From Antedon mediterranea (Eukaryota; Animalia; Echinodermata), in the NCBI RefSeq assembly GCF_964355755.1, contig NC_092671.1, forward strand, positions 11,780,001 to 11,844,000: 64,000 nucleotides of DNA. Direction: 5' to 3'. Shown in pieces: positions 2,431-62,606 of this stretch; positions within the stretch are counted from its first letter, which is position 1, and each line of letters starts with the position of its first letter. The notes under the pieces are model-generated. The model was not told the origin of the DNA, searched no databases, and saw nothing but the letters and a program-made list of their open reading frames with translations. The position numbers were made by a program, and so were the translations under genes.

Positions 2431-2431
2431 T

Positions 2432-2462: not shown

Positions 2463-2464
<2 letters not shown>

Positions 2465-18389: not shown

Positions 18390-18440
18390 AAAAAGATCCT
18401 GACAATAACAAGGGGTTATCCGCCAAGTGCGGATAACCAA

Positions 18441-24600: not shown

Positions 24601-24760
24601 CGCGTACGTCACGTTGCGCAATTGTAAACATCATGAAAAGCTTCGCTTGACGACGTTACATAAATGTCAAAATGTTAACATAGTTAACAAAATGTTATGT
24701 TTGCGAGTTTTACAGAAAAGCGTTACACAAAAATCATACAGAAAGAAAGAAGAAGAATAA

Positions 24761-29050: not shown

Positions 29051-30202
29051 CTAGATTTGAACTCGTCACTACGGACGAGTTAGGTTATCCGCAGCGCAAA
29101 AGCCACGTGCACGTCGTACGTTAGAATATTGCGCGCAGATAAACGATGATGCCATTGAAACAATTTCAGTTTTCTCTCTATTTTGCGTCACGTCTAAGTA
29201 TATACGGTATACACTATATTATACTCTATACGTACTACATACAGTGCAGAATAGGTGAAAATAAGTGACCAAAGTTATTGACGCTTTTGGACATGATGAC
29301 GTCATCACAATTTTTAAACTAATGAATCATACGAAAGATAATTGATTGACTTAGACAATATAAAGAAATGGAGGGCAATGGAATACGGATAAGTCGAGAT
29401 GCGCTCTATTAAATGTGATGAGCTCTACGAAAGAGAAAAAAATCCTATATTTTATATTCGAGTGGCCATACGATGACGTCACAATGTCCGGTTAGCCATA
29501 TCGATGCATGATTTGATATTTACAACTCATCTACTTCCAGAATCTGAAATTTAAAAAATTTTCACCTCGGAGTTTAGAATCTATGACTTTTTAAAAAAAG
29601 GCATAATTTTCACGAATTTTTGAACTTTTTCATCAAAAACGCGCGCAAATTGTTCAATTCTACGTGCTCGTATGACGTGATTTTAAGTCCAAATTGTTTG
29701 AAAGTTGGTAAATTTACTAGAAAAGGCTGGAAAAACAAAAATCAAACAAAAAAAAGATGTTTTTGCGCTACGTGCGCACGCGCGCGTAAAAAAATTGCGC
29801 ATGCCTGGGAATTTTTGAAATGCTCAAAATGACATGAAACGCGTAGAAAGTTGATTAGAAGTTGATTTTTTGCATTTTGAAATTTTAAACGCGCGTGCGC
29901 GCGTAACTTCCTGTGAAACATGCCATTTTTAATCCATAGAAAGTTTGCGCTTGATATGACTTAAATGTTCACTAAGTTTCAATATAAAATGACTTTCGGT
30001 TTTTAATCTATGATCAATCATTTAAATTCATAAAACCGCGCGTAACTTACGCTGCGCAACTCAAAATTCATAAAAAAAAGTTTCTTGCACATCTACAGCT
30101 ACAGGGCAATCTTTTGACAAAGTTATACAATCATATGTTTGCCAGAGTTAGAGATACGCTGCGAACAAAATTCGTGGAAAGAAAGAAGAACATAGAAAAA
30201 AA

Positions 30203-30233
<31 letters not shown>

Positions 30234-30277
30234 GATCCTGACAATAACAAGGGGTTATCCGCCAAGTGCGGATAACC

Positions 30278-30279
<2 letters not shown>
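29051..30279 (-). mobile_element. Intact short-subfamily element with type B cap
   Basis: CTAGATTTG start; poly-A linker; cap GATCCTGACAATAACAAGGGGTTATCCGCCAAGTGCGGATAACCAA at 30234-30279. Confidence 0.82.
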
Positions 30280-30308
<29 letters not shown>

Positions 30309-30489
30309 TCCTGACAATAACAAGGGGTTATCCGCCAAGTGCGGATAACCAAAAAAAAAAATATTGATCCACTACAATCACAAGGAGTTATCCGCTACTA
30401 AGCGGATAACTAAAAAGTTGATGATGATGATGATGATGATTTCGTACAATCACAAGAGGTTATCCTGCAACTTCGTTGCGGATAACCAA
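30234..30489 (-). repeat. Stack of four 5' caps from three subfamilies (B, B, AGTT-type, A)
   Basis: Caps end at 30279, 30352, 30413 and 30489, separated by poly-A or (GAT)n linker halves. Confidence 0.9.
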
Positions 30490-39400: not shown

Positions 39401-41286
39401 ATTAATTTTGCGCATTTTGAAGTTTTAAATGCGCGTGCGCGCGTAACTTTGTGTAAAACACGCAATTTTTTTTCAACATAAAGTTAGCGCATGATATAAA
39501 TTAAACTTTTGCGAAGTTTCAAGTTGAAATGTTATTTGGTTTTCAACATATGTTAAATACGAGAAAAACGTTAAATCGCGCGTACGTCACGTTGCGCAAT
39601 TGCAAACATCATGAAAAGCTTCGCTTGACGACGTTACGTAAATGTCAATATGTTAAGATAGTTACCGAAATGTTATGTTTGCGAGTTTTAGAGAAAAGCG
39701 TTACACAAAAATCATACAGAAAGAAAGAAGAACTAGACATGTAACTCGTCACTTTGACGAGTTTGGTTATCCGCCGCGCAAGTGGTGCAACATTAACATT
39801 AAGGGGATAGGTTGAGGACAAAAGGAAGTGTTCACGTTGGCATTATGACCTGAACTGAAGAATATGATATGTTGTTATTGCTGAATTTTATTGTTTAAAT
39901 TCATATATAGTATACACAGTATAATCTGTATCCATATCACATACAGTGTAGAATAGGTGAAATTACGGGACCCGCTATTTATTGCAATTTTTAACATGTT
40001 GACGGTTTTAAAATGAAACGGGAAGGTAGCAATTCCGAAAGGAAATTATCTCAGCAACAACGTATTAGCGTGTAGAAGAAATTTGAATACGTGAAATATT
40101 GATGCGCGCTCTTTTAAATGTAATGAATTATGACGCAAAAGATGGAAATACGACCTTTTTTATTTAACTGGCCATATGATGACGTCACAACATCCGATTG
40201 GCAACATTTTTACATAATTTCGTATCTACAATCCAATAGCTTCCAGAAAAAGTTTTAATCGTGATTATCACATTTTATTCTTACGAGCTATAACAGATTA
40301 AAATTTACTGTAAAGATGAAATTGATGCCACACGTGATTTAAATTTTTAGGCATGATGACGTCAAAAAAATTAAAATATTTTAACTCATGCGAAAGATAG
40401 TTGATTGACCTAGACAATATCAAAATCCGGGTGAAAATGGAAAACGGATAAGTGGAGATGCGCTCTATTCAATGTGATGAGCTATGACGAAAGATACAAA
40501 AATCCTAAATTTTATATTCGCGTGGCCATACGATGACGTCACAATGTCCGGTTAGCCATATTAATACCTGATCCGATATCTACAACTCATCTACTTCCAG
40601 AATATGCCATCCACAAAAATTTGACCGTCTAGTTTAGAAATTACGACTGTTTAAAAAAAGGCATATTTTAAACGAATTTGTTAACCTTTTCATAAAAAAC
40701 GCGCGCAAATTGTCCAATTCGACGTGCTCGTATGACGTATCTTTAAGTCGAAATTGTTTAAAATTTGGTAAAATTACATGAAAAGGCTGGAAAAACATAA
40801 ATCACTCGAAAAAAATACCTTTTCAATGCTACGTGCGCACCGCACACGTAAAAATGTGCGCACGCGTGGGAATTTTTGACATGCTTAAAACGACATGAAA
40901 CGCGTAGAAAGTTGATTATAAATTAGTTTCGCGCATTTTGAAATTTTAAATGCGCGTGCGCGCGTAACTTTGTGTAAAACACGCAATTTTTTTTCAACAG
41001 AAAGTTAGCGCATGATATAAATTAAACTTTTGCAAAGTTTCACTTTAAAATGTTATTTGGTTTTCGACATATGTTAAATACGAGAAAATCGTTAAATCGC
41101 GCGTACGTCACGTTGCGCAATTGTAAACATCATGAAAAGCTTCGCTTGACGACGTTACATAAATGTCAAAATGTTAACATAGTTAACAAAATGTTATGTT
41201 TGCAAGTTTCAGAGAAAAGCGTTACACAAAAATCATACAGAAAGAAAGAAGAAGAATAAAAAGTTGATGATGATGATGATGATGAT

Positions 41287-41543
41287 GATTTCGTACAATC
41301 ACAAGAGGTTATCCTGCAACTTCGTTGCGGATAACCAAAAATAAAAAGATGATGATTTCGTACAATCACAAGAGGTTATCCTGCAACTTCGTTGCGGATA
41401 ACCAATGATGATGATTTCGTACAATCACAAGAGGTTATCCTGCAACTTCGTTGCGGATAACCAATAAAAAGTTGATGATGATGATGATGATGATTTCGTA
41501 CAATCACAAGAGGTTATCCTGCAACTTCGTTGCGGATAACCAA
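41287..41543 (-). repeat. Stack of four type A 5' caps
   Basis: Caps end at 41338, 41405, 41464 and 41543, following four consecutive cap-less bodies (33628-39732) plus the adjacent body. Confidence 0.9.
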
Positions 41544-44500
41544 CTAGACATGTAACTCGTCACTTTGACGAGTTTGGTTATCCGCCGCGCAAGTGGTGCA
41601 ACATTAACATTAAAGGGATAGGTTGAGGACAAAAGGAAGTGTTCACGTTGGCATTATGACCTGAACTGAAGAATATGATATGTTGTTATTGCTGAATTTT
41701 ATTATTTAAATTCATATATAGTATACACAGTATAATCTGTATCCATATCACATACAGTGTAGACTAGGTGAAATTACGGGACCCGCTATTTATTGCAATT
41801 TTTAACATGTTGACGGTTTTAAAATGAAACGCGAAGTTAGCAATTCCGAAAGGAAATTATCTCAGCAACAACGTATTAGCGTGTAGAAGAAATTTGAATA
41901 CGTTAAATATTGATGCGCGCTCTTTTAAATGTAATGAATTATGACGCAAAAGATGAAAATACGACCTTTTTTATTTAACTGGCCATATGATGACGTCACA
42001 ACATCCGATTGGCAACATTTTTACATAATTTCGTATCTACAATCCAATAGCTTCCAGGAAGAGTTTTAATCGTGATTATCACATTTTATTCTTACGAGCT
42101 ATAACAGATTAAAATTTACTGTAAAGATGAAATTAATGCCACACGTGATTTAAATTTTTAGGCATGATGACGTCAAAAAAATTTAAATATTTTTAACTCA
42201 TGCGAAAGATAGTTGATTGACCTAGACAATATCAAAATCGGGGTGAAAATAGAAAACGGATAAGTGGAGATGCGCTCTATTCAATGTGATGAGCTATGAC
42301 GAAAGATACAAAAATCCTAAATTTTATATTCGCGTGGCCATACGATGACGTCACAATGTCCGGTTAGCCATATTAATACCTGATCCGATATCTACAACTC
42401 ATCTACTTCTAGAATATGTCATCCACAAAAAATTGACCGTCTAGTTTAGAAATTACGACTGTTTAAAAAAAGGCATATTTTAAACGAATTTTTTTAACCT
42501 TTTCATAAAAAACGCGCGCAAATTGTCCAATTCGACGTGCTCGTATGACGTATCTTTAAGTCGAAATTGTTTAAAATTTGGTAAAATTACTAGAAAAGGC
42601 TGGAAAAACATAAATCAAGCGAAAAAAATACGTTTTCAATGCTACGTGCGCACCGCACACGTAAAAATGTGCGCACGCGTGGGAATTTTTAACATGCTTA
42701 AAACGACATGAAACGCGTAGATAGTTGATTAGAAATTAATTTTGCGCATTTTGAAATTTTAAATGCGCGTGCGCGCGTAACTTTGTGTAAAACACGGACT
42801 TTTTTTTCAACAGAAAGTTAGCGCATGATATAAATTAAACTTTTGCAAAGTTTCAAGTTGAAATGTTATTTGGTTGTCGAGCTATGTTAAATACGACAAA
42901 ATCGTTAAATCGCGCGTAAGTCACGTTGCGCAATTGTAAACGTCATGAAAAGCTTCGCTTGACGACGTTACGTAAATGTCAATATGTTAAGATAGTTACC
43001 GAAATGTTATGTTTGCGAGTTTTAGAGAAAAGCGTTACACAAAAATCATACAGAATGATTTCGTACAATCACAAGAGGTTATCCTGCAACTTCGTTGCGG
43101 ATAACCAACTAGACATGTAACTCGTCACTTTGACGAGTTTGGTTATCCGCCGCGCAAGTGGTGCAACATTAACATTAAGGGGATAGGTTGAGGACAAAAG
43201 GAAGTGTTCACGTTGGCATTATGACCTGAACTGAAGAATATGATATGTTGTTATTGCTGAAATTTATTGTTTAAATTCATATATACTGTAGTATACACAG
43301 TATAATCTGTATCCATATCACATACAGTGTAGAATAGGTGAAATTACGGGACCCGCTATTTATTGCAATTTTTAACATGTTGACGGTTTTAAAATGAAAC
43401 GCGAAGGTAGCAATTCCGAAAGGAAATTATCTCAGCAACAACGTATTAGCATGTAGAAGAAATTTGAATACGTGAAATATTGATGCGCGCTCGTTTAAAT
43501 GTAATGAATTATGACGCAAAAGATGAAAATACGACCTTTTTTATTTAACTGGCCATATGATGACGTCACAACATCCGATTGGCAACATTTTTACATAATT
43601 TCGTATCTACAGTCCAATAGCTTCCAGAAAAAGTTTTAATCGTGATTATCACATTTTATTCTTACGAGCTATAACAGATTAAAATTTACTGTAAAGATGA
43701 AATTAATGCCACACGTGATTTAAATTTTTAAGCACGATGACGTAAAAAAAATTAAAATATTTTTAACTCATGCGAAAGATAGTTGATTGACCTAGACAAT
43801 ATCAAAATCGGGGTGAAAATGGAAAACGGATAAGTGGAGATGCGCTCTATTCAATGTGATGAGCTATGACGAAAGATACAAAATCCTAAATTTTATATTT
43901 GCGTGGCCATACGATGACATCACAATGTCCGGTTAGCCATATTAATACCTGATCCAATATCTACAACTCATCTACTTCCAGAAAATGCCATCCACAAAAA
44001 GTTGACCGTTTAGTTTAGAAATTACGACTGTTTTAAAAAAGGCATATTTTAAACGAATTTTTTAACGTTTTCATAAAAAACGCGCGCAAATTGTCCAATT
44101 CGACGTGCTCGTATGACGTATCTTTAAGTCAAAATTGTTTAAAATTTGGTAAAATTACTAGAAAAGGCTGGAAAAACATAAATCACGCGAAAAAAATACG
44201 TTTTCAATGCTACGTGCGCTCCGCACACGTAAAAATGTGCGCATGCGTGGGAATTTTTGACATGCTTAAACCGACATGAAACGCGTAGAAAGTTGATTAG
44301 AAATTAATTTTGCGCATTTTGAAATTTTAAATGCGCGTGCGCGCGTAACTTTGTGTAAAACACGCAATTTTTTTTCAACAGAAGGTTAGCGCATGATATA
44401 AATTAAACTTTTGCAAAGTTTCACTTTAAAATGTTATTTGGTTTTCGACATATGTTAAATACGAGAAAATCGTTAAATCGCGCGTACGTCACGTTGCGCG

Positions 44501-47500
44501 ATTGTAAACATCATGAAAAGCTTCGCTTGACGACGTTACATAAATGTCAAAATGTTAACATAGTTAACAAAATGTTATGTTTGCAAGTTTTAGAGAAAAG
44601 CGTTACACAAAAATCATACAGAAAGAAAGAAGATTAAGAAAAAGATGACTAGACATGTAACTCGTCACTTTGACGAGTTTGGTTATCCGCCGCGCAAGTG
44701 GTGCAACATTAACATTAAGGGGATAGGTTGAGGACAAAAGGAAGTGTTCACGTTGGCATTATGACCTGAACTGAAGAATATGATATGTTGTTATTGCTGA
44801 ATTTTATTATTTAAATTCATATATAGTATACACAGTATAATCTGTATCCATATCACATACAGTGACATACAGTGTAGAATAGGTGAAATTACGGGACCCG
44901 CTATTTATTGCAATTTTTAACATGTTGACGGTTTTAAAATGAAACGCGAAGGTAGCAATTCCGAAAGGAAATTATCTCAGCAACAACGTATTAGCGTGTA
45001 GAAGAAATTTGAATACGTGAAATATTGATGCGCGCTCTTTTAAATGTAATGAATTATGACGCAAAAGATGAAAATACGACCTTTTTTATTTAACTGGCCA
45101 TATGATGACGTCACAATATCCGATTGGCAACATTTTTACATAATATCGTATCTACAATCCAATAGCTTTCAGAAAAAGTTTTAATCGTGATTATCACATT
45201 TTATTCTTACGAGCTATAACAGATTAAAATTTACTGTAAAGATGAAATTGATGCCACACGTGATTTAAATTTTTAGGCATGATGACGTCAAAAAAATTTA
45301 AATATTTTTATCTCATGCGAAAGATAGTTGATTGACCTAGACAATATCAAAATCGGGGTAAAAATGGAAAACGAATAAGTGGAGATGCGCTCTATTCAAT
45401 GTGATGAGCTATGACGAAAGATACAAAAATCCTAAATTTCATATTCGCGTGGCCATACGATGACGTCACAATGTCCGGTTAGCCATATTAATACCTGATC
45501 CGATATCTACAACTCATCTACTTCCAGAATATGTCATCCACAAAAAGTTGACCGTCTACTTTAGAAATTACGACTGTTTTAAAAAATGCATATTTTAAAC
45601 GAATTTGTTAACCTTTTCATAAAAAACGCGCGCAAATTGTCCAATTCGACGTGCTCGTATGACGTATCTTAAAGTCGAAATTGTTTAAAATTTGGTAAAA
45701 TTACTAGAAAAGGCTGGAAAAACATAAATCACGCGAAAAAAATACGTTTTCAATGCTACGTGCGCACCGCACACGTAAAAATGTGCGCACGCGTGGGAAT
45801 TTTTTACATGCTTAAAACGACATGAAACGCGTAGAAAGTTGATTATAAATTAATTTTGCGCATTTTGAAATTTTAAATGCGCGTGCGCGCGTAACTTTGT
45901 GTAAAACACGCAATTTTTTTTCAACAGAAATTTAGCGCATGATATAAATTAAACTTTTGCAAAGTTTCACTTTAAAATGTTATTTGGTTTTTGACATATG
46001 TTAAATACGAGAAAATCGTTAAATCGCGCGTACGTCACGTTGCGCAATTGTAAACATCATGAAAAGCTTCGCCTGACGACGTTACATAAATGTCAAAATG
46101 TTAACATAGTTAACAAAATGTTATGTTTGCAAGTTTTAGAGAAAAGCGTTACACAAAAATCATACAGAAAGAAAGAAGATTAAGAAAAAGATGATGATGA
46201 TTTCGTACAATCACAAGAGGTTATCCTGCAACTTCGTTGCGGATAACCAATGATGATTTCGTACAATCACAAGAGGTTATCCTGCAACTTCGTTGCGGAT
46301 AACCAACTAGACATGTAACTCGTCACTTTGACGAGTTTGGTTATCCGCCGCGCAAGTGGTGCAACATTAACATTAAGGGGATAGGTTGAGGACAAAAGGA
46401 AGTGTTCACGTTGGCATTATGACCTGAACTGAAGAATATGATCTGTTGTTATTGCTGAATTTTATTATTTAAATTCATATATAGTATACACAGTATAATC
46501 TGTATCCATATCACATACAGTGTAGAATAGGTGAAATTACGGGACCCGCTATTTATTGCAATTTTTAACATGTTGATGGTTTTAAAATGAAACGCGAAGT
46601 TAGCAATTCCGAAAGCAAATTATCTCAGCAACAACGTATTAGCATGTAGAAGAAATTTGAATACGTGAAATATTGATGCGCGCTCGTTTAAATGTAATGA
46701 ATTATGACGCAAAAGATGAAAATACGACCTTTTTTATATAACTGGCCATATGATGACGTCACAACATCCGATTGGCAACATTTTTACATAATTTCGTATC
46801 TAAAATTCAATAGCTTCCAGAAAAAGTTTTAATCGTGATTATCACATTTTATTCTTACGAGCTATAACAGATTAAAATTTACTGTAAAGATGAAATTAAT
46901 GCCACACGTGATTTAAATTTTTAGGCATGATGACGTCAAAAAAATTAAAATATTTTTAACTCATGCGAAAGATAGTTGATTGACCTAGACAATATCAAAA
47001 TCGGGGTGAAAATGGAAAACGAATAAGTGGAGAGGCGCTCTATTCAATGTGATGACCTATGACGAAAGATACAAAAATCCTAAATTTTATATTCGTGTGG
47101 CCATACGATGACGTCACAATGTCCGGTTAGCCATATTAATACCTGATCCGATATCTACAACTCATCAACTTCCAGAATATGTCATCCACAAAAAGTTGAC
47201 CGTGTAGTTTAGAAATTACGACTGTTTAAAAAAAGGCATATTTTTAACGGAATTTTGAACTTTTTCATCAAAAACACGCGCAAATTGTCCAATTCGACGT
47301 GCTCGTATGACGTAACTTTAAGTCGAAATTGTTTAAAATTTGATAAAATTACTAGAAAAGGCTGGAAAAACATAAATCACGCGAAAAAAATATGTTTTCA
47401 ATGCTACGTGCGCACCGCACACGTAAAAATTTGCGCACGCGTGGGAATTTTTTACATGCTTAAAACGACATGAAACGCGTAGAAAGTTGATTAGAAATTA

Positions 47501-50500
47501 ATTTTGCGCATTTTGAAATTTTAAATGCGCGTGCGCGCGTAACTTTGTGTAAAACACGCAATTTTTTTTCAACATAAAGTTAGCGCATGATATAAATTAA
47601 ACTTTTGGAAAGTTTCAATTTGAAATGTTATTTGGTTTTCGACCTATGTTAAATACGAGGAAATCGTTAAATCACGCGTAAGTCACGTTGCGCAATTGTA
47701 AACGTCATGAAAAGCTTCGCAGCACATCTTCATGTGCATGACGATATGTTGAGAAAGTTACAAAATGTTATGTTTACAAGTTTTAGAGAAAAGCGTTCCA
47801 CAAAAATCATACAGAAAGAAAGAAGATCAAGACTAGACATGTAACTCGTCACTTTGACGAGTTTGGTTATCCGCCGCGCAAGTGGTGCAACATTAACATT
47901 AAGGGGATAGGTTGAGGACAAAAGGAAGTGTTCACGTTGGCATTATGACCTGAACTGAACAATATGATATGTTGTTATTGCGGAATTTTATTATTTAAAT
48001 TCATATATAGTATATACACAGTATAATCTGTATCCATATCACATACAGTGTAGAATAGGTGAAATTACGGGACCCGCTATTTATTGCAATTTTTAACATG
48101 TTGATGGTTTTAAAATGAAACGCGAAGGTAGCAATTCCGAAAGGAAATTATCTCAGCAACAACGTATTAGCGTGTAGAAGAAATTTGAATACGTGAAATA
48201 TTGATGCGCCCTCTTTTAAATGTAATGAATTATGACGCAAAAGATGAAAATACGACCTTTTTTATTTAACTGGCCATATGATGACGTCACAACATCCGAT
48301 TGGCAACATTTTTACATAATTTCGTATCTACAGTCCAATAGCTTCCAGAAAAAATTTTAATCGTGATTATCACATTTTATTCTTACGAGCTATAACAGAT
48401 TAAAATTTACTGTAAAGATGAAATTAATGCCACACGTGATTTAAATTTTTAGGCATGATGACGTCAAAAAAATTAAAATATTTTTAACTCATGCGAAAGA
48501 TACTTGATTGACCTAGACAAAATCAAAATCGGGGTGAAAATGGAAAACGGATAAGTGGAGATGCGCTCTATTCAATGTGATGAGCTATGACGAAAGATAC
48601 AAAAATCCTAAATTTTATATTCGCGTGGCCATACGATGACGTCACAATGTCCGGTTAGCCATATTAATACCTGATCCGATATCTACAACTCATCTACTTC
48701 CAGAATATGCCATCCACAAAAAGTTGACCGTCTAGTTTAGAAATTACGACTGTTTAAAAAAAGGCATATTTTAAACAAATTTTTTAACCTTTTCATAAAA
48801 AACGCGCGCAAATTGTCCAATTCGACCAGCTCGTATGAGGTATCTTTAAGTCGAAATTGTTTAAAATTTGGTAAAATTACTAGAAAAGGCTGGAAAAATA
48901 TAAATCACGCGAAAAAAGTACGTTTTCAATACTACGTGCGCACCGCACACGTAAAAATGTGCGCACGCGTGGGAATTTTTGACATGCTTAAAACGACATG
49001 AAACGCGTAGAAAGTTGATTATAAATTAATTTTGCGCATTTTGAAATTTTAAATGCGCGTGCGCGCGTAACTTTGTGTAAAACACGCAATTTTTTTTCAA
49101 CAGAAAGTTAGCGCATGATATAAATTAAACTTTTGCAAAGTTTCAAGTTGAAATGTTATTTGGTTGTCGAGCTATGTTAAATACGACAAAATCGTTAAAT
49201 CGCGCGTAAGTCACGTTGCGCAATTGTAAACGTCATGAAAAGCTTCGCTTGACGACGTTACGTAAATGTCAATATGTTAAGATAGTTACCGAAATGTTAT
49301 GTTTGCGAGTTTTAGAGAAAAGCGTTACACAAAAATCATACAGAATGATTTCGTACAATCACAAGAGGTTATCCTGCAACTTCGTTGCGGATAACCAAAA
49401 AAGACTAGACATGTAACTCGTCACTTTGACGAGTTTGGTTATCCGCCGCGCAAGTGGTGCAACATTAACATTAAGGGGATAGGTTGAGGACAAAAGGAAG
49501 TGTTCACGTTGGCATTATGATCTGAACTGAAGAATATGATATGTTGTTATTGCTGAATTTTATTATTTAAATTCATATATAGTATAAACAGTATATTCTG
49601 TATCCATATCACATACAGTGACATACAGTGTAGAATAGGTGAAATTACGGGACCTGCTATTTATTGCAATTTTTATCATGTTGACGGTTTTAAAATAAAA
49701 CGCGAAGGTAGCAATTCCGAAAGGAAATTATCTCAGCAACAACGTATTAGCGTGTAGAAGAAATTTGAATACGTGAAATATTGATGCGCGCTCTTTTAAA
49801 TGTAATGAATTATGACGCAAAAGATGAAAATACGACCTTTTTCATTTAACTGGCCATATGATGACGTCACAACATCCGATTGGCAACATTTTTACATAAT
49901 TTCGTATCTACAATCCAATAGCTTCCAGAAAAAGTTTTAATCGTGATTATCACATTTTATTCTTACGAGCTATAACAGATTAAAATTTACTGTAAAGATG
50001 AAATTGATGCCACACGTGATTTAAATTTTTAGGCATGATGACGTCAAAAAAATTAAAATATTTTTACCTCATGCGAAAGATAGTTGATTGACCTAGACAA
50101 TATCAAAATCAGGGTGAAAATGGAAAACGAATAGGTGGAGATGCGCTCTATTCAATGTGATGAGTTATGACGAAAGATACAAAAATCCTAAATTTTATAT
50201 TCGCGTGGCCATACGATGACGTCACAATGTCCGGTTAGCCATATTAATACCTGATCCGATATCTACAACTCATCTACTTCCAGAATATGTCATCCACAAA
50301 AAGTTGACCGTCTAGTTTAGAAATTACGACTGTTTAAAAAAAGGCATATTTTAAACGAATTTTTTAACCTTTTCATAAAAAACGCGCGCAAATTGTCCAA
50401 TTCGACGTGCTCGTATGACGTATCTTTAAGTCGAAATTGTTTAAAATTTGGTAAAATTGCTAGAAAAGGCTGGAAAAACATAAATCACGCGAAAAAAATA

Positions 50501-50939
50501 CGTTTTCAATGCTACGTGCGCACCGCACACGTAAAAATGTGCGCACGCGTGGGAATTTTTGACATGCTTAAAACGACATAAAACGCGTAGAAAGTTGATT
50601 ATAAATTAATTTTGCGCATTTTGAAATTTTAAATACGCGTGCGCGCGTAACTTTGTGTAAAACACGCAATTTTTTTTCAACAGAAAGTTAGCGCATGATA
50701 TAAATTAAACTTTTGCAAAGTTTCACTTTAAAATGTTATTTGGTTTTCGACATATGTTAGATACGAGAAAATCGTTAAATCGCGCGTACGTCACGTTGCG
50801 CAATTGTAAACATCATGAAAAGCTTCGCTTGACGACGTTACATAAATGTCAAAATGTTAACATAGTTACCGAAATGTTATGTTTGCGAGTTTTAGAGAAA
50901 AGCGTTACACAAAAATCATACAGAAAGAAAGAAGAAGAA

Positions 50940-52538
50940 CTAGACATGTAACTCGTCACTTTGACGAGTTAGTTATCCGCATGAGAAACGCCACGCACAC
51001 GTCATACGTTGAAATTTTGCGCACAAAAAAATATTATGGCATTATGACCTGAACTGAAGAATGTCATATGCTGTTAGTGCTGAATTCTGTCAATTTTGTG
51101 TCATATAGTATATACAGTATAAACAGTATAATCTGTATGCGTATTACATACAGTGTAGAATAGGTGAAATTACGGGACCCCCCATTTATTCCTATTTTTA
51201 ACATGGCGGCGGTATCAAAATGAAACACTAAGATAGCAATTTTGGAAGCAAATGATCTCATCAACAACATATTACCGTGTAGAAGAAATTTGAATACGTC
51301 AAATATAGATACGCGCTCTTTTAAATGTGATGAACTATGACGCAAATTATGAAAATACGACTTTTTATATTCAACTGGCCATATGATGACGTCACAACAT
51401 CTGATTGGCAAAATGTTCACATGAATTCGTATCTACAATCCAATAGCTTCCATAAAAAGTTTTGATCATGATTATCACTTTTTATTGTGACGAGCTATAA
51501 CAGATTGAAATTTACTGTAAAGATGAAAATAAGTGACCCACGTTATTTACATTTTTAGACATGATGGCGTCATAAAAATTAAAATATTTTTAACTCATGC
51601 GAAAGAAAGGTGATTGACCTAGACAATGTCAAAATCGGGGTGAAAATTGAAAACGGATAAGTAGAGATGCGCTCTATTAAATGTGATGAGCTATGACGAA
51701 AGATACAAAAATCCTATATTTTATATTCACGTGGCCATACGATGACGTCACAATGTCCGGTTAGCCATATTATTACATGATCCGATATCTACACCTCATC
51801 AACTTCAAGAATATGTCATCCACAAAAATTTGACCGTCCAGTTTAGAAATTACAACTGTTTAAAAAAAGGCATAATTTTGACAAATTTTAACGAATTTTT
51901 TAACTTTTTCACCAAAAACCCACGTAAATTATCCAATTCGACGCGCAAGTATGACGTAATTTTAAGTCAAAATCGTTTAAAAGTTGGTAAAATTACTACA
52001 AAAGGCTGGAAAAACATAAATCACGTGAAAAAAATTGTTTTCAACGCTACGTGCGCACGGCGCGCGTAACAAAATGCGCGTGCGTTGGAATTTTTTACCT
52101 GCTCAAAATGACATGAAACGCGTAGAAAGTGGATTAGAAATTGATTTTTCGCATTTTGAAATTTTAAACGCGCGTGCGCGCGTAACTTCGTGTAAAACAA
52201 GCCATTTTTTTTACACAGTCAGTTAGCGCAAGATATAACTTAAACTTTCGTTAAGTTTCAATTTAAATTGTTATATGGTTTTCGATGTATGTTAAATACG
52301 CGAAATTCGTTAAAACACGCGTAAGTCATGTTGTGCAATTCTGACGTCATTCAAAAATAGAAAAGCACAACTTCAGGTGAATACCCATATGTTGACAAAG
52401 TTATGAAATGTTAACTTTACACTTTTTTGAGATATGCTCTGCACAAAAATGACAGAAAGAAAGAATAATACAGAAAAAAAAAAAAGATGATGAAACAGGA
52501 CAGTTACAAGGAGTTATCCGCTGAGTGCGGATAACTAA
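50940..52538 (-). mobile_element. Intact divergent AGTT-subfamily element
   Basis: subTIR TTAGTTATCCGC; cap GATGAAACAGGACAGTTACAAGGAGTTATCCGCTGAGTGCGGATAACTAA. Confidence 0.82.
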
Positions 52539-55500
52539 CTAGACATGTAACTCGTCACTTTGACGAGTTTGGTTATCCGCCGCGCAAGTGGTGCAACATT
52601 AACATTAAGGGGATAGGTTGAGGACAAAAGGAAGTGTTCACGTTGGCATTATGACCTGAACTGAAGAATATGATCTGTTGTTATTGCTGAATTTTATTAT
52701 TTAAATTCATATATAGTATACACAGTATAATCTGTATCCATATCACATACAGTGTAGAATAGGTGAAATTACGGGACCCGCTATTTATTGCAATTTTTAA
52801 CATGTTGATGGTTTTAAAATGAAACGCGAAGTTAGCAATTCCGAAAGCAAATTATCTCAGCAACAACGTATTAGCGTGTAGAAGAAATTTGAATACGTTA
52901 AATATTGATGCGCGCTCTTTTAAATGTAATGAACTATGACGAAAAAGATGAAAATACGACCTTTTTTATTTAACTGGCCATATGATGACGTCACAACATC
53001 CGATTGGCAACATTTTTACATAATTCCATATCTACAATCCAATAGCTTCCAGAAAAAGTTTTAATCGTGATTATCACATTTTATTCTTACGAGCTATAAC
53101 AGATTAAAATTTACTGTAAACATGAAATTGATGCCACACGTGATTTAAATTTTTAGGCATGATGACGTCAAAAAAAATAAAATATTTTTAACTCATGCGA
53201 AAGATAGTTGATTGACCTAGACAATATCAAAATCGGGGTGAAAATGGAAAACGGATAAGTGGAGATGCGCTCTATTCAATGTGATGAGCTATGACGAAAG
53301 ATACAAAAATACTAAATTTTATATTCGCGTGGCCATACGATGACGTCACAATGTCCGGTTAGCCATATTAATACCTGATCCGATATCTACAACTCATCTA
53401 CTTCCAGAATATGTCATCCACAAAAATTTGACCGTCTAGTTTAGAAATTACGACTGTTTAAAAAAAGGCATATTTTAAACGAATTTTTTAACCTTTTCAT
53501 AAAAAACGCGCGCAAATTGTCCAATTCGACGTGCTCGTATGACGTATCTTTAAGTCGAAATTGTTTAAAATTTGGTAAAATTACTAGAAAAGGCTGGAAA
53601 AACATAAATCACGCGAAAAAAATACGTTTTCAATGCTACGTGCGCACCGCACACGTAGAAATGTGCGCACGCGTGGGAATTTTTGACATGCTTAAAACGA
53701 CATGAAACGCGTAGAAAGTTGATTATAAATTAATTTTGCGCATTTTGAAATTTTAAATGTGCGTGCGCGCGTAACTTTGTGTAAAACATGCAATTTTTTT
53801 TCAACAGAAATTTAGCGCATGATATAAATTAAACTTTTGCAAAGTTTCACTTTAAAATGTTATTTGGTTTTCGACATATGTTAAATACGATAAAATCGTT
53901 AAATCGCGCGTACGTCACGTTGCGCAATTGTAAACATCATGAAAAGCTTCGCTTGACGACGTTACATAAATGTCAAAATGTTAACATAGTTAACAAAATG
54001 TTATGTTTGCGAGTTTTACAGAAAAGCGTTACACAAAAATCATACAGAAAGAAAGAAGAAGAACTAGACATGTAACTCGTCACTTTGACGAGTTTGGTTA
54101 TCCGCCGCGCAAGTGGTGAAACATTAACATTAAGGGGATAGGTTGAGGACAAAAGGAAGTGTTCACGTTGGCATTATGACCTGAACTGAAGAATATGATA
54201 TGTTGTTATTGCTGAATTTTATTATTTAAATCCATATATAGTATACACAGTATAATCTGTATCCATATCACATACAGTGTAGAATAGGTGAAATTACGGG
54301 ACCCGCTATTTATTGCAATTTTTAACATGTTGACGGTTTTAAAATGAAACGCGAAGGTAGTAATTCCGAAAGCAAATTATCTCAGCAACAACGTATTAAC
54401 GTGTAGAAGAAATTTGAATACGTGAAATATTGATGCGCGCTCTTTTAAATGTAATGAATTATGACGCAAAAGATGAAAATACGACCTTTTTTATTTAACT
54501 GGCCATATGATGACGTCACAACATCCGATTGGCAACATTTTTACATAATTTCGTATCTACAATCCAATAGCTTCCAGAAAAAGTTTTATTCGTGATTATC
54601 ACATTTTATTCTTACGAGCTATAACAGATTAAAATTTACTGTAAAGATGAAATTACTGCCACACGTGATTTTAATTTTTAGGCATGATGACGTCAAAAAA
54701 ATTAAAATATTTTTAACTCATGCGAAAGATAGTTGATTGACCTAGACAATGTCAAAATCGGGGTGAAAATGGAAAACGGATAAGTGGAGATGCGCTCTAT
54801 TCAATGTGATGAGCTATGACGAAAGATACAAAAATCCTAAATTTTATATTCGCGTGGCCATACGATGTTGTCAAAATGTCCGGTTAGCCATATTAATACC
54901 TGATCCGATATCTACAACTCATCTACTTCCAGAATATCCCATCCACAAAAAGTTGACCTTCTAGTTTAGAAATTACGACTGTTTAAAAAAAGGCATATTT
55001 TAAACGAATTTTTTAACATTTTCATAAAAAACGCGCGCAAATTGTCCAATTCGACGTGCTCGTATGACGTATCTTTAAGTCGAAATTGTTTAAAATTTGG
55101 TAAAATTACTAGAAAAAGCTGGAAAAACATAAATCACGCGAAAAAAAATCGTTTTCCATGCTACGTGCGCACCGCACACGTAAAAATGTGCGCACGCGTG
55201 GGAATTTTTGACATGCTTAAAACGACATGAAACGCGTAGAAAGTTGATTATAAATTAATTTTGCGCATTTTGAAATTTTAAATGCGCGTGCGCGCGTAAC
55301 TTTGTGTAAAACACGCAATTTTTTTTCAACAGAAAGTTAGCGCATGATATAAATTAAACTTTTGCAAAGTTTCACTTTAAAATGTTATTTGGTTTTCGAC
55401 ATATGTTAAATACGAGAAAATCGTTAAATTGCGCGTACGTCACGTTGCGCAATTGTAAACATCATGAAAAGCTTCGCTTGACGACGTTACATAAATGTCA

Positions 55501-58500
55501 AAATGTTAACATAGGTAACAAAATGTTATGTTTTCAAGTTTTAGAGAAAAGCGTTACACAAAAATCATACAGAAAGAAAGAAGAAAAATAAAAAGTTGAT
55601 GTTGATGATTTCGTACAATCACAAGAGGTTATCCTGCAACTTCGTTGCGGATAACCAACTAGACATGTAACTCGTCACTTTGACGAGTTTGGTTATCCGC
55701 CGCGCAAGTGGTGCAACATTAACATTAAGGGGATAGGTTGAGGACAAAAGGAAGTGTTCACGTTGGCGTTATGACCTGAACTGAAGAATATGATCTGTTG
55801 TTATTGCTGAATTTTATTATTTAAATTCATATATAGTATACACAGTATAATCTGTATCCATATCACATACAGTGTAGAATAGGTGAAATTACGGGACCCG
55901 CTATTTATTGCAATTTTTAACATGTTGACGGTTTTAAAATGAAACGCAAAGTTAGCAATTCCGAAAGGAAATTATCTCAGCAACAACGTATTAGCGTGTA
56001 GAAGAAATTTGAATACGTTAAATATTGATGCGCGCTCTTTTAAATGTAATGAATTATGACGCAACAGATGAAAATACGACCTTTTTTATTTAACTGGCCA
56101 TATGATGACGTCACAACATCCGATTGGCAACATTTTTACATAATTTCGTATCTGCAATCCAATAGCTTCCAGAAAAAATTGTAATCGTGATTATCACATT
56201 TTATTCTTACGAGCTATAACAGATTAAAATTTACTGTAAAGATGAAATTGATGCCATACGTGATTTAAATTTTTAGGCATGATGACGTCAAAAAAATTAA
56301 AATATTTTTAACTCATGCGAAAGATAGTTGATTGACCTAGACAATATCAAAATCGGGATGAAAATGGAAAACGGATAAGTGGAGATGCGCTCTATTCAAT
56401 GTGATGAGCTATGACGAAAGATACAAAAATCCTAAATTTTATATTCGCGTGGCCATACGATGACGTCACAATGTCCGGTTAGCCATATTAATACCTGATC
56501 CGATATCTAAAACTCATCTACTTCCAGAATATGTCATCCACAAAAATTTGACCGTCTAGTTTAGAAATTACGACTGTTTAAAAAAAGGCATATTTTAAAC
56601 GAATTTTTTAACCTTTTCATAAAAAACGCGCGCAAATTGTCCAATTGGACGTGCTCGTATGACGTATCTTTAAGTCGAAATTGTTTAAAATTTGGTAAAA
56701 TTACTAGAAAAAGCTGGAAAAACATAAATCACGCGAAAAAAATACGTTTTCAATGCTACGTGCGCACCGCACACATAAAAATGTGCGCACGCGTGGGAAT
56801 TTTTTACATGCTTAAAACGACATGAAACGCGTAGAAAGTTGATTAGAAATTAATTTTGCGCATTTTGAAATTTTAAATGCGCGTGCGCGCGTAACTTTGT
56901 GTAAAACACGCAATTTTTTTTCAACAGACAGTTAGCGCATGATATAAATTAAACTTTTGAAAAGTTTCACTTTAAAATGTTATTTGGTTTTCGACATATG
57001 TTAAATACGAGAAAATCGTTAAATCGCGCGTACGTCGCGTTGCGCAATTGCAAACATCATGAAAAGCTTCGCTTGACGACGTTACGTGAATGTCAAAATG
57101 TTAACATAGTTAACAAAATGTTATGTTTGCAAGTTTTAGAGAAAAGCGTTACACAAAAATCATACAGAAAGAAAGAAGATGACAAAAAAGATGACTAGAC
57201 ATGTAACTCGTCACTTTGACGAGTTTGGTTATCCGCCGCGCAAGTGGTGCAACATTAACATTAAGGGGATAGGTTGAGGACAAAAGGAAGTGTTCACGTT
57301 GGCATTATGACCTGAACTGAAGAATATGATATGTTGTTATTGCTGAATTTTATTATTTAAATTCATATATAGTATACACAGTATAATCTGTATCCATATC
57401 ACATACAGTGACATACAGTGTAGAATAGGTGAAATTACGGGACCCGCTATTTATTGCAATTTTTAACATGTTGACGGTTTTTAAATGAAACGCGAAGGTA
57501 GCAATTCCGAAAGGAAATTATCTCAGCAACAACGTATTAGCGTGTAGAAGAAATTTTAATACGTGAAATATTGATGAGCGCTCTTTTAAATGTAATGAAT
57601 TATGACGCAAAAGATGAAAATACGACCTTTTTTATTTAACTGGCCATATGATGACGTCACAACATCCGATTGGCAACATTTTTACATAATTTCGTATCTA
57701 CAATCCAATAGCTTCCAGAAAAAGTTTTAATCGTGATTATCACATTTTATTCTTACGAGCTATAACAGATTAAAATCTACTGTAAAGATGAAATTGATGC
57801 CACACGTGATTTAGATTTTTAGGCATGATGACGTCAAAAAAATTAAAATATTTTTAACTCATGCGAAAGATAGTTGATTGACCTACACAATATCAAAATC
57901 GGGGTGAAAGTGGAAAACGAATAAGTGGAGATGCGCTCTATTCAATGTGATGAGCTATGACGAAAGATACAAAAATCCTAAATTTTATATTCGCGTGGCC
58001 ATACGATGACGTCACAATGTCCGGTTAGCCATATTAATACCTGATCCGATACCTACAACTCATCTACTTACAGAATATGTCATCCACAAAAAGTTGACCG
58101 TCTAGTTTAGAAATTACGACTGTTTAAAAAAAGGCATATTTTAAACGAATTTTTTAACCTTTTCATTAAAAACGCGCGCAAATTGTCCAATTCGACGTGC
58201 TCGTATGACGTATCTTTAAGTCGAAATTGTTTAAAATTTGGTAAAATTATTAGAAAAGGCTGGAAAAACATAAATCACGCGAAAAAAATACGTTTTCAAT
58301 GCTACGTGCGCACCGCACACGTAAAAATGTGCGCACGCGTGGGAATTTTTGACATGCTTAAAACGACATGAAACGCGTAGAAAGTTGATTATAAATTAAT
58401 TTTGCGCATTTTGAATATTTAAATGCGCGTGCGCGCGTAACTTTGTGTAAAACACGCAATTTTTTTTCAACAGAAAGTTAGCGCATGAAATAAATTAAAC

Positions 58501-58931
58501 TTTTGCAAAGTTTCACTTTAAAATGTTATTTGGTTTTCGACATATGTTAAATACGAGAAAATCGTTAAATCGCGCGTACGTCACGTTGCGCAATTGTAAA
58601 CATCATGAAAAGCTTCGCTTGACGACGTTACATAAATGTCAAAATGTTAACATAGTTAACAAAATGTTATGTTTGCAAGTTTTAGAGAAAAGCGTTACAC
58701 AAAAATCATACAGAAAGAAAGAAGATTAAGAAAAAGATGTTGATGATTTCGTACAATCACAAGAGGTTATCCTGCAACTTCGTTGCGGATAACCAATGAT
58801 GATTTCGTACAATCACAAGAGGTTATCCTGCAACTTCGTTGCGGATAACCAATAAAAAGTTGATGATGATGATGATGATGATTTCGTACAATCACAAGAG
58901 GTTATCCTGCAACTTCGTTGCGGATAACCAA

Positions 58932-60512
58932 CTAGACATGAAACTCGTCACTTTGACGAGTTAGTTATCCGCACGACAAACGCCACGAGCACGTCATGCG
59001 TTGGAATATTGCACACAGAAAAAGATTATGGCATTATGACCTGAAGAAGAATATGATTATGTTATTATTGCTGAATTCTGTTATTTTGTGTCATATAGTA
59101 TACACAGTATAATCTGTATACATCACATACAGTGTAGAATAGGTGAAATTACGGGACCCGCTATTTATTCCAATTTTTAACATGTTGACGGTTTCAAAAT
59201 GAAACCCGAAGGTAGCAATTTCGGAAGAAAATTATCTCAGCAACAACATATTAGCATGTAGAAGAAATTTGAATACGTGAAATATGGATGCGCGCTCTTT
59301 TAAATGTAATGAATTATAATGCAAAAGATGAAAATACGACTTTTTTTATTTAACTGGCCATATGATGACTTCACAACATCCGATTGGCAAAATGTTCACA
59401 TGATTTCGTATCTACAATTCAATAGCTTCCAGAAAACGTTTTAATCGTGATTATCATATTTCATTCTTACGAGCTATAACAGATTAAAATTTACTGTAAA
59501 GATAAAATTTATGCAACATGTAATTTAAATTTTTAGGCATGATGACGTCATAAAAATTAAAATATTTTTAACTCATGCGAAAGACAGTTGATTGACCTAG
59601 ACAATATCAAAATCGGGGTGAAAATGGAAAACGGATAAGTGTAGATGCGCTCTATTAAATGTGATGAGCTATGACGAAAGATACAAAAATCATAAATTTT
59701 GTATTCGCGTGGCCATACAGTGACGTCACAATGTCCGGTTAGCCATAATAATGCATGATCCGATATTTACAACTCATCAACTTCCAGAATATGCAATAAA
59801 AATAACTTTCACCGTTTGGTTTAGAAACTACGACTGTTTAAAAAAAGGTATAATTTTGACAAATTTTGACAAATTTTTGAACTTTTTCATCAAAAACGCA
59901 CATAAATTATCCAATTCGACGTGCCCGTATGACGTGATTTTAAGTCGAAAATGTTTGGAAATTGGTAAAATTACTAAAAAAGAGTGGAAAAACATAAATC
60001 ACGGAAAAAAAATTGTTTTCAACGCTACATGTGCACCGCACGCGTAAAAAAATGCGCACGCGTGGGAATTTTTGACATGCTCAAAATGACATGAAACGCG
60101 TAGAAAGTTGATTAGAAATTGATTTTTCTCAATTTTAAATTTTAAACGCGCATGCGCGCGTAACTTTGTGTGAAACATGCCATTTTTTTTCCACAGTCAG
60201 TTAGCGCAAGATATAAATTAAACTTTTGTTAAGTTTCAATTTAAATTGTTATATGGTTTTCGATCTATATTAAATACGCGAAATTCGTAAAAACGCGCGT
60301 AAGTCATGTTGCGCAACTCTGTCGTCATTCACAATAGGAGGTGCACTATTTCACGTGAATGCCCACATGTTGACAAAGTTATAAAATGTTATGTTAACAC
60401 GTTTTTGAGTTACGCGAGACACAAAATTGACAGAAAGAAAGAATAATACAGAAAAAAAAAAAGATGATTTCATACAGTTACAAGGAGTTATCCGCTGAAT
60501 GCGGATAACTAA
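58932..60512 (-). mobile_element. Intact divergent AGTT-subfamily element
   Basis: subTIR TTAGTTATCCGC; cap GATTTCATACAGTTACAAGGAGTTATCCGCTGAATGCGGATAACTAA. Confidence 0.82.
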
Positions 60513-60647
60513 AAAAGATGATTTCGTACAATCACAAGAGGTTATCCTGCAACTTCGTTGCGGATAACCAAAAATAAAAAGTTGATGATGATGATGATTT
60601 CGTACAATCACAAGAGGTTATCCTGCAACTTCGTTGCGGATAACCAA

Positions 60648-62234
60648 CTAGACATGTAACTCGTCACTTTGACGAGTTTGGTTATCCGCCGCGCAAGTGG
60701 TGCAACATTAACATTAAGGGGATAGGTTGAGGACAAAAGGAAGTGTTCACGTTGGTATTATGACCTGAACTGAAGAATATGATATGTTGTTATTGCTGAA
60801 TTTTATTATTTAAATTCATATATAATATACACAGTATAATCTGTATCCATATCACATACAGTGTAGAATAGGTGAAATTACGGGACCCGCTATTTATTGC
60901 AATTTTTAACATGTTGACGGTTTTAAAATGAAACGCGAAGGTAGCAATTCCGAAAGGAAATTATCTCAGCAACAACGTATTAGCGTGTAGAAGAAATTTG
61001 AATACGTGAAATATTGATGCGCGCTCTTTTAAATGTAATGAATTATGACGCAAAAGATGAAAATACGACCTTTTTTATTTAACTGGCCATATGATGACGT
61101 CACAACATCCGATTGGCAAAATTTTTACATAATTTCGTATCTACAATCCAATAGCTTCCAGACAAAGTTTTAATCGTGATTATCACATTTTATTCTTACG
61201 AGCTATAACAGATTAAAATTTACTGTAAAGATGAAATTAATGCCACACGTGATTTAAATTTTTAGGCACGATGACGTCAAAAAAAATTAAAATATTTTTA
61301 ACTCATGCAAAAGATACTTGATTGACCTAGACAATATCAAAATCGGGGTGAAAATGGAAAACGGATAAGTGGAGATGCGCTCTATTCAATGTGATGAGCT
61401 ATGACGAAAGATACAAAAATCCTAAATTTTATATTCGCGTGGCCATACGATGACGTCATAATGTCCGGTTACCCATATTAATACCTGATCCGATATCTAC
61501 AACTCATCTACTTCCAGAATATGTCATCCACAAAAATTTGACCGTCTAGTTTAGAAATTACGACTGTTTAAAAAAAGGCATATTTTAAACGAATTTTTTA
61601 ACCTTTTCATAAAAAACGCGCGCAAATTGTCCAATTCGACGTGCTCGTATGACGTATCTTTAAGTCGAAATTGTTTAAAATTTGGTAAAATTACTAGAAA
61701 AGGCTGAAAAAACATAAATCACGCGAAAAAAATACGTTTTCAATGCTACGTGCGCACCGTACACGTAAAAATGTGCGCACGCGTGGGAATTTTTGACATG
61801 CTCAAAACGACATGAAACGCGTAGAAAGTTGATTAGAAATTAATTTTGCGCATTTTGAAATTTTAAATGCGCGTGCGCGCGTAACTTTGTGTAAAACACG
61901 CAATTTTTTTTCAACAGACAGTTAGCGCATGATATAAATTAAACTTTTGCAAAGTTTCATTTTAAAATGTTGTTTGGTTTTCGACATATGTTAAATACGA
62001 GAAAATCGTTAAATCGCGCGTACGTCGCGTTGCGCAATTGTAAACATCATGAAAAGCTTCGCTTGACGACGTTACGTGAATGTCAAAATGTTAACATAGT
62101 TAACAAAATGTTATGTTTGCAAGTTTTAGAGAAAAGCGTTACACAAAAATCATACAGAAAGAAAGAAGATGAAAAAAAAGATGATTTCGTACAATCACAA
62201 GAGGTTATCCTGCAACTTCGTTGCGGATAACCAA
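60648..62234 (-). mobile_element. Last intact major-subfamily element of the array
   Basis: Both termini present; shares diagnostic variants with the copy at 21706-23232. Confidence 0.83.
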
Positions 62235-62289
62235 TAAAGATTTCATACAATAACAATAGGTGATCATTTTATTCTAAATGATCACCTAA
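62235..62289 (-). mobile_element. Orphan 5' cap of a distantly related family closing the array
   Basis: GATTTCATACAATAACAA leader like the other caps, then a different perfect 13-bp hairpin TAGGTGATCATTT-tattct-AAATGATCACCTA (62257-62288) followed by an A-run. Confidence 0.65.
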
Positions 62290-62606
62290 AAAACGAGTAG
62301 GAGCAAAGGATAACCCTCTAAACCCGGAGGTTTGTATCCTGAGGGGTTATGACAAGGTCAAGCAGAATGTCGCAATCAAACATCACACATAAATCTGCAA
62401 TTACAGACCATGCTACAAAGGAAAACCGTACACCTATAGGAAGCAAAAGTGTTAAAGAAACAGGGAAATATCAACAAGAGAAGATGGCAAGCAAAAAGTA
62501 ATTATAATTAGAAAAACTGAAAACAACATGAACAGAGATCAAGGAGGAAAGTGGCTGCCACACATACGATGATCTATTAGAAGTGAGACGGCCGACCGCG
62601 GCGGAC

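What the first reader, a model, noticed from the sequence alone, without database searches (positions are those of the whole stretch)
62235..62289. Outermost cap from a different family: possible founder of the array
Directly after the last element (...ATAACCAA|TAAAGATTTCATACAATAACAA) comes a cap with the conserved GAT..TACAAT.ACAA leader but an unrelated perfect 13-bp stem. Under the nesting model this is the 5' end of the original host element, whose body should lie at the far left end of the whole array. The leader conserved across all cap types may be the signal that directs insertion to the adjacent linker (inference).
Basis: inference. Interest (0 to 1): 0.72.

Follow-up and report, generated by a model that had tools for sequence, protein, structure and literature searches.

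The report
Host transposon end capping nested array
The hairpin at the right edge of a long stack of jumping-DNA copies is the end of a different, very common, distantly related mobile element that was likely the host into which the stack grew, by repeated insertion into a short T/C-rich stretch that each copy carries.

Summary
The cap is real: an 18-nt leader plus the window's only perfect 13-bp stem. In public contigs it lies at about 10^4 times single-locus depth, ends at 62289 against unrelated flanks, and stacks on itself in 4 of 4 runs. It is therefore the terminus (5' end, minus strand) of an abundant second HINE-like rolling-circle family, X. It is not 'unrelated': 23 of 28 nt match the array's A-family cap, with compensatory stem changes, though it is a separate family by the subTIR rule. 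The array grew by nested insertion: 22 junctions in linkers, 18 at element ends, 0 in 57.8 kb of bodies. No X partner lies in the window. X as outermost host with its body left of the window is likely (about 0.7) but untested, because no genome is held. X/A nesting recurs elsewhere in both directions, so X is an ordinary host. Targeting more likely follows the T/C-rich tract 3' of the site than the leader. Precedents: DINE-1's conserved core and FoHeli's stacked 5' ends.

The parts
62257..62289 (-). Cap X hairpin: predicted 5' subTIR (62276-62288) plus inverted repeat (62257-62269) and terminal T(s); end of family X
   Evidence: contigs diverge behind 62289 in 4 of 4 runs
62239..62256 (-). 18-nt leader/core shared with A, B and C caps (16 of 18 identical to A)
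62235..62238 (-). Remnant of X's linker, cut 4 nt from the leader by the A-family insertion (A^T site on the minus strand)
   Evidence: X-family linker is A-rich with TAA units (table 5c, table 7)
60648..62234 (-). Last intact A-family HINE-like element (5'-TT, cap, leader, linker, 1.5 kb body, 12-bp 3' subTIR, 9-bp hairpin, CTAG-3')
   Evidence: near-identical sister at 21706 (5 of 1467 differences)
1..62234 (-). Nested and head-to-tail array: 40 element 3' ends (31 a, 5 b, 4 c/d type) and 39 A/B/C caps; continues beyond the left edge of the window
62290..62341 (+). Repeated flank piece that X inserted into; other copies without X carry a purine-rich tract at the X position
   Evidence: X7 loose end before 62291, 3 contigs, agreement 0.81; records 26, 27; records 14, 23, 24
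62343..62444 (+). Decayed fragment like the C-terminal part of a GIY-YIG endonuclease, probably a Penelope-like retroelement relic
   Evidence: 68% identical over 34 aa to P0001, which carries a VY.I.C..C...YIGETGR motif (the motif label is recalled, Pfam gave no GIY-YIG call)

Best explanation
The hairpin at 62239-62289 is the terminus of an abundant second family (X) of small mobile elements, likely non-autonomous rolling-circle transposons (HINE type), and likely the outermost host into whose linker the A-family array grew. SHOWN: the cap is a mobile-element end, homologous to but distinct from the A cap. An A copy sits 4 nt from its leader. The array is built of whole elements joined only in linkers or at element ends. 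X-in-X, A-like-in-X and X-in-A-like junctions occur elsewhere. INFERRED: a RepHel transposase from an unseen autonomous partner inserts 5'-TT...CTAG-3' copies before a T, without duplication, preferring sites followed by about 20 nt of T/C-rich DNA. Each element carries such a tract just inside its 5' cap and the tract survives each insertion, so copies land in each other and at each other's 3' ends. X first inserted in such a tract in a decayed repeat; A, B and C copies then piled into X's linker and pushed X's body more than 62 kb to the left. PREDICTED: left of the window lies an X body whose linker abuts a CTAG end and whose 3' subTIR reads like 62257-62269 on the plus strand; it is not necessarily at the extreme left edge.
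For: Cap X summed contig depth is 2.6e5-4.5e5 in run X1 against 29-31 for four exactly matching flank pieces. Contigs leave the window behind 62289 with unrelated AT-rich sequence in 4 of 4 runs (13, 17, 21, 16 contigs; agreement 0.45-0.46). Cap X-cap X joints occur in 4 of 4 runs (depth 950, 4134, 97, 267). A-like cap followed by cap X with differences from the window: X1 record 4, X2 record 11, X7 record 21, the last beside a loose end showing a different cap loop. Cap X followed by an A-like cap: X2, depth 285. No X subTIR elsewhere in the window; X stays unpaired in 8 of 8 matching runs and no orphan cap is needed. Split B/C bodies close on their own cap type 4 of 4, P 7e-5. Junctions: 22 in linkers, 18 at ends, 0 in 57,814 bp of bodies holding 8,516 AA dinucleotides. 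20 of 22 linker sites have at least 85% purines in the 20 nt on the plus-strand left, against 121 of 20,208 body A positions. The X-free flank consensus has 17 purines in its last 20 nt and no leader (counted by hand table 7). Neighbours are no more alike than random pairs (about 3%), while near-identical sisters lie 13-46 kb apart and hold different children. Helraiser prefers AT-rich DNA within about 20 bp, most strongly on the 3' side (PMC4778049, passage).
Against: The left boundary and any X body were never seen: no genome, and collection scans found no X element. The plain bracket parse is unbalanced: it pairs X with an A body at 33628 and leaves 2 more A bodies capless. Only 7 of 13 stack pairs rebuild an intact linker within 1 edit, permutation P 0.062. 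The matching is fitted and lets caps stay open to the left at no cost, which favours leaving X unpaired. X's 4-nt linker remnant is within 1 edit of an intact A linker for 3 of 16 left pieces, so an X-cap/A-body chimera is not excluded. Summed contig depth is not a copy number (tool's warning); X1 and X2 are one sample and may be the window's source. The X-free site comes from paralogues in organism B (3 contigs) and differs from the window by one A at the junction. Four of 19 splits, X's among them, lie exactly 4 nt from a leader and none closer, which fits a leader effect as well.
Confidence: 0.66

Rival explanations
1. Orphan or passenger cap: an A copy inserted into an X linker elsewhere, and transposition starting at X's cap and ending at the A 3' end carried a double-capped unit here, so no X body exists at this locus.
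For: FoHeli elements with multiple 5' termini move as units, and self-insertion was proposed as their origin (PMC5148889, section 10 and passage). HelenXT233 has two different left ends in direct repeat (PMC11417382, section 18). A-like/X double caps exist elsewhere at the same offset.
Against: No orphan cap is needed in any of 8 parses; the array has a deficit of caps, not an excess. B and C caps stay with their own bodies 9 of 9. Listed A-like/X junction pieces are at only about 1-2 times single-locus depth (48, 308, 81.5, table cut), not amplified.
Confidence: 0.17
2. Leader-directed targeting: the conserved leader and cap, bound by a transposase or host protein, direct new copies of any family to the adjacent linker; X is the founder and its body marks the far-left end.
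For: All 19 cap-to-cap splits lie 4-33 nt from a leader, 4 of them at exactly 4 nt including X's. The same X offset is used by another cap variant in organism B. The leader is conserved across diverged stems, as the DINE-1 core is across five subTIRs (PMC2374699, passages).
Against: X's own target has no leader but has the purine-rich tract. The tract alone separates linker sites from bodies (20 of 22 versus 0.6%). Two B-type caps have degenerate leaders, and one of them (21679) hosts four sibling blocks. A dating test that could separate the two models had no power.
Confidence: 0.25
3. X was the host, but its body has since been deleted or separated by recombination within the array, leaving a solo cap.
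For: At least 3 (5-7 in the fitted matching) A bodies lack caps; unit 4040 has lost about 1 kb and unit 6140 about 120 bp, so rearrangement occurs.
Against: Cap X shows no variant at 5% share or more against the runs (table 3 lists none in 62233-62292), and sister elements differ by as little as 1 of 1465 nt, so the locus looks young.
Confidence: 0.1
4. The array is an ordinary satellite made by unequal crossing-over or rolling-circle concatemers, and the cap is a chance neighbour.
For: 18 of 40 junctions are head-to-tail and 17 of them have the CTAG/TT form expected of a circle junction.
Against: Head-to-tail a-type neighbours differ at 36-69 of about 1450 nt, no closer than the 2.8% median, and 7 such junctions join different types. 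Cap/body types match at a distance. The A element sits inside X's linker 4 nt from the leader.
Confidence: 0.04

Closest known systems
DINE-1 / HINE, non-autonomous Helentrons (HLE2) (PMC2374699, PMC4067079; passages read)
   Same: About 12-13-bp subTIRs, an inverted repeat beside the 5' subTIR, a conserved core shared across different subTIRs, a microsatellite, a 3' stem-loop, T-rich targets, no duplication, variable terminal T's, no coding capacity.
   Different: A elements end in CTAG like canonical Helitrons and use A^T, T^T and G^T sites (10, 11, 18 of 39). The shared core is only 18 nt. The passages seen describe no deep recursive nesting or cross-family cap stacks.
FoHeli non-canonical Helitrons of Fusarium with multiple 5' termini (PMC5148889; passages and section 10)
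   Same: Stacked short 5' ends explained by self-insertion close to the 5' end.
   Different: There the multi-cap units transpose as chimeras with a single 3' end. Here most caps still pair with their own bodies up to 10.7 kb away, two families are involved, and the array exceeds 62 kb.
Xenopus HelenXT233 with two left terminal sequences (PMC11417382; section 18)
   Same: Two non-identical 5' ends in direct repeat, each marking its own non-autonomous subfamily.
   Different: A single autonomous element with two left ends, not a nested array.
Tandem truncated Helitron arrays of plant centromeres and shuffled Helitron loci of oyster (seen only as passages of the review PMC12628747)
   Same: Helitron-derived arrays; multiple 5' ends.
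   Different: Those are ascribed to rolling-circle concatemers or shuffling. Here neighbours are unrelated copies and bodies outnumber caps.
Helraiser (HLE1) target choice (PMC4778049; passages)
   Same: CTAG-3' joined to a target T; AT-rich preference strongest on the 3' side; 3'-end bypass.
   Different: HLE1 starts with TC and lacks inverted repeats; these elements start with TT and have subTIRs.

Membership tests
HINE / non-autonomous Helentron (HLE2), family X | 5' subTIR within a few nt of a T-rich terminus, with an adjacent inverted repeat | tested here: met
   13-bp stem ending 1 nt from the element end at 62289
HINE / non-autonomous Helentron (HLE2), family X | Matching 3' subTIR followed by a 3' stem-loop | not testable with these tools
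   No match in the window; no genome; collection scans empty or chance; read laying gives no contig sequences
HINE / non-autonomous Helentron (HLE2), family X | Interspersed, high copy, sharp boundary | tested here: met
   Depth about 10^4 times single-locus pieces and diverse flanks behind 62289 in 4 of 4 runs
HINE / non-autonomous Helentron (HLE2), family X | Insertion in T-rich DNA without target duplication | tested here: inconclusive
   T-run at the junction and X-free paralogues seen, but only the right junction is in the window and it differs from the paralogue by one A
HINE / non-autonomous Helentron (HLE2), family X | Microsatellite behind the core | tested here: inconclusive
   TAA units and A-runs in 30-nt consensus ends with agreement 0.56-0.66
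HINE / non-autonomous Helentron (HLE2), family X | Autonomous RepHel partner with the same subTIR | not testable with these tools
   No genome held
HINE / non-autonomous Helentron (HLE2), family A (the array) | Paired subTIRs, 5' inverted repeat, 3' stem-loop, microsatellite, no ORF | tested here: met
   12-bp subTIR, 3' copy 30 nt from the CTAG; 9-bp hairpin at 39 of 40 ends; (GAT)n; one 87-aa ORF only in 60640-64000
HINE / non-autonomous Helentron (HLE2), family A (the array) | Insertion before T without duplication | tested here: met
   A precedes CTAG at 40 of 40 ends and AA follows 39 of 39 caps; removing the child restores an intact-type linker exactly in 5 of 13 stack pairs
Same HINE family as A (rule of PMC4067079) | At least 11 bp identical subTIR | tested here: not met
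   Longest shared run in the terminal 14 nt is 3 nt; X is a separate but homologous family
Canonical Helitron (HLE1) | 5'-TC start, no terminal inverted repeats | tested here: not met
   5' ends are TT(A)GG and subTIRs are present
Canonical Helitron (HLE1) | Hairpin plus CTRR-3' | tested here: met
   Family A ends in hairpin plus CTAG; not testable for X
Penelope-like element (flank relic) | GIY-YIG endonuclease fused to a PLE reverse transcriptase | tested here: inconclusive
   One hit, E 7.9e-4, to a protein with a GIY-YIG-like motif; no Pfam call; no RT seen

The most novel reading that the evidence does not exclude
Several HINE families with diverged, compensated stems keep one 18-nt leader that acts as a shared landing signal. 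Families served by different transposases therefore insert into each other's linkers and build satellite-like arrays over 60 kb long by recursive insertion alone, with cap X marking the datable seed of this array.
Probability: 0.22. Interest if true: 0.7.

Novelty: new variant of a known kind. Interest (0 to 1): 0.42.

Why it matters
It shows a route from transposon to satellite-like array that needs no tandem duplication: elements that carry their own preferred target grow by insertion into themselves, and the route crosses family boundaries. The edge cap gives a precise test (an X body and a known flank sequence left of the array). The 40 natural insertion sites here constrain target choice by HLE2 transposases; the transposition assay I read concerns HLE1 (Helraiser), and PMC4067079 calls for biochemical work on Helentrons. 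The parts have precedents (DINE-1 core, FoHeli stacked ends), so a specialist would find this a neat case more than a surprise.

Tried and rejected
No genome for the window. Scans for cap X found nothing in viral contigs, metagenome contigs and genome contigs; a scan for cap A in genome contigs found nothing. A looser leader-plus-stem pattern gave 1 metagenome hit, read as chance inside coding-looking DNA, and 112 viral hits, none with a return arm. No RNA holder was listed; this says nothing on expression. Rfam over 60600-64000 gave one weak match (E 0.36), far below threshold. Pfam on two flank peptides and the ESM Atlas on one gave nothing. Dating hosts against children by private mutations failed its own control (6 older, 6 younger, 1 tie of 13), so the 4:1 result (1 tie) on 6 head-to-tail pairs was discarded. 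The plain-stack pairing of X with the A body at 33628 was set aside: that body belongs to the linker clade whose exact complement is cap 41413. Unit 4040 was left out of the a-type distance summaries because of its deletion. Junction 33628 was classed by hand as head-to-tail although a 10-nt remnant intervenes. The Hydractinia subtelomeric Helitron-like arrays (PMC11934779, parts 1-2 of 6) are 372-bp tandem repeats and were judged different. Eight literature searches listed no paper that, in the listings or passages I read, describes cross-family nested HINE arrays. Subscription journals are largely not covered, and no supplements were read.

Full report
Observation. After the last A-family cap (ends 62232) come AA, TAAA, an 18-nt leader (62239-62256) and a perfect 13-bp stem, 62257-62269 with 62276-62288. 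It is the only such stem in the window; 0 of 500 resamples of the flank give one, and it folds at z -5.7. The stem is not unrelated: leader plus left arm match the A cap at 23 of 28 nt without gaps, and the two stems differ in their shared core by two compensatory pairs. By the rule of at least 11 identical subTIR bases (PMC4067079, passage) it is still a separate family, here called X.

The array. Positions 1-62234 hold 40 element 3' ends and 39 caps of types A, B and C. On the minus strand each element reads TT, cap hairpin, leader, (ATC)n and T/C-rich linker, about 1.5 kb body, 12-bp 3' subTIR, 9-bp hairpin, CTAG. This is the DINE-1/HINE anatomy (PMC2374699, passages) with a Helitron-like CTAG end. 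An A precedes CTAG at 40 of 40 ends and AA follows 39 of 39 caps; target dinucleotides on the element strand are G^T 18, T^T 11, A^T 10. Junctions fall in linkers (22) or at element ends (18, one with a 10-nt remnant) and never in 57,814 bp of bodies. The four split B/C bodies each close on a cap of their own type 2.4-10.7 kb away, chance 7e-5. a-type neighbours are as different as random pairs (about 3%), while sisters differing by 1-12 nt lie 13-46 kb apart with different children. The array therefore grew by independent insertions.

The bookkeeping is imperfect. The plain stack pairs X with an A body at 33628 and leaves two more A bodies capless. Only 7 of 13 stack pairs rebuild an intact linker within one edit (P 0.062). 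A non-crossing matching that allows capless bodies gives 9-11 pairs within two edits, 5-7 capless bodies, no orphan caps, and leaves X open to the left in 8 of 8 settings; that matching is fitted and does not penalise open caps. No X subTIR occurs elsewhere in the window.

What X is. No genome is held, so I laid public contigs: 4 of the 8 listed runs and 3. X1 and X2 are one sample of organism A and may be the window's source; X5 and X7 are organism B. Over cap X the summed depth is 2.6e5-4.5e5 in X1, against 29-31 for four exactly matching flank pieces. The tool warns that this is no copy number, but the gap is four orders of magnitude. In 4 of 4 runs contigs leave the window behind 62289 with unrelated AT-rich sequence, and cap X follows cap X. 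Peak depth over cap X exceeds that over cap A in all three runs. Pieces joining an A-like cap to cap X with differences from the window are listed in 3 of 3 runs at about 1-2 times single-locus depth; in X7 a neighbouring loose end shows a different cap loop. One X2 joint shows cap X followed by an A-like cap. X is therefore an abundant, self-nesting family that trades insertions with the A group in both directions. Its 3' end could not be read, because the tool prints no contig sequences.

The flank. Positions 62290-62341 are a repeated piece also seen without X. Positions 62343-62444 are 68% identical over 34 aa to a protein with a GIY-YIG-like motif; I read this, from recall of the motif, as a Penelope-like relic. 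Pfam did not confirm it.

Mechanism. Inferred steps: X inserted at this site; an A copy inserted at an A^T site 4 nt from X's leader; further copies inserted into linkers and at element ends. For targeting, 20 of 22 linker sites are followed on the element strand by 20 nt that are at least 85% T/C, against 0.6% of body sites. The two exceptions are tracts cut short by a neighbouring insertion. The X-free flank consensus has the same make-up (17 of 20, hand count) and no leader. Helraiser likewise prefers AT-rich DNA on the 3' side of the site (PMC4778049, passage). This tract survives every insertion, which explains both nesting and head-to-tail chains, and it means X's body may not mark the extreme left end. 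The leader model is not excluded: all 19 cap-to-cap splits are 4-33 nt from a leader, four at exactly 4 nt, and my attempt to order siblings by age had no power. The leader's conservation more simply reflects a role in excision or transposase binding, as proposed for the DINE-1 core.

Odds. X is a real terminus of a distinct family: about 0.93. X was the host and its body lies left of the window: about 0.7. That body lies exactly at the left boundary: about 0.4. Tract over leader as the main target signal: about 0.6 to 0.25.

Comparison. It works like a HINE and meets the testable 5' features; the 3' features and the autonomous partner are untested, so membership of X is provisional. Stacked 5' ends by self-insertion are described for FoHeli (PMC5148889, passages and section 10) and two left ends for HelenXT233 (PMC11417382, passages and section 18). 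Tandem Helitron arrays are reviewed in PMC12628747 (passages). Oyster HINEs (PMC7492417, passages) and Hydractinia arrays (PMC11934779, parts 1-2 of 6) differ. Eight searches showed no description of cross-family nested HINE arrays; coverage is partial and no supplements were read. An unchecked note from this scan reports a similar nest in another genome; it is not evidence for this locus.

Verdict. The feature is real. New variant of a known kind; interest 0.42.

Noticed in passing
window 23233 and 52539: Two elements differing at 1 of 1465 nt are split at different linker positions and hold different nested stacks (4 and 3 elements), which suggests very recent, fast growth of the array.
   Followed up: partly
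window 2512/46307 and 36674/49405: Two sister pairs (6 differences each) share the same truncated linker end and are often left capless in the matching. They may be passengers of 3'-end read-through or copies started inside the linker.
   Followed up: partly
window 33618-33627: A 10-nt extra CTAG-bearing remnant lies between a cap and the next 3' end, possibly a 3'-end bypass relic of a c/d-type end.
   Followed up: no
window 780, 9077, 32002, 33566, 43057, 49347: A subfamily with the linker tract deleted: all 5 copies whose body is in the window are unsplit, as expected if the linker tract is the target.
   Followed up: partly
window 4040-4603 and 6140: Internally deleted units (about 1 kb and about 120 bp lost); the 5' part of 4040 is closest to unit 38208.
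   Followed up: partly
window 62670-62800: A second moderately repeated piece in the flank (X1 depth up to 1,900 against 30 for single-locus pieces), of unknown identity; no Rfam match.
   Followed up: partly
window 62884-63301: A degenerate direct duplication with 256-283 nt spacing, each copy with a T-rich tract ending in GCAG that looks like a splice acceptor.
   Followed up: no
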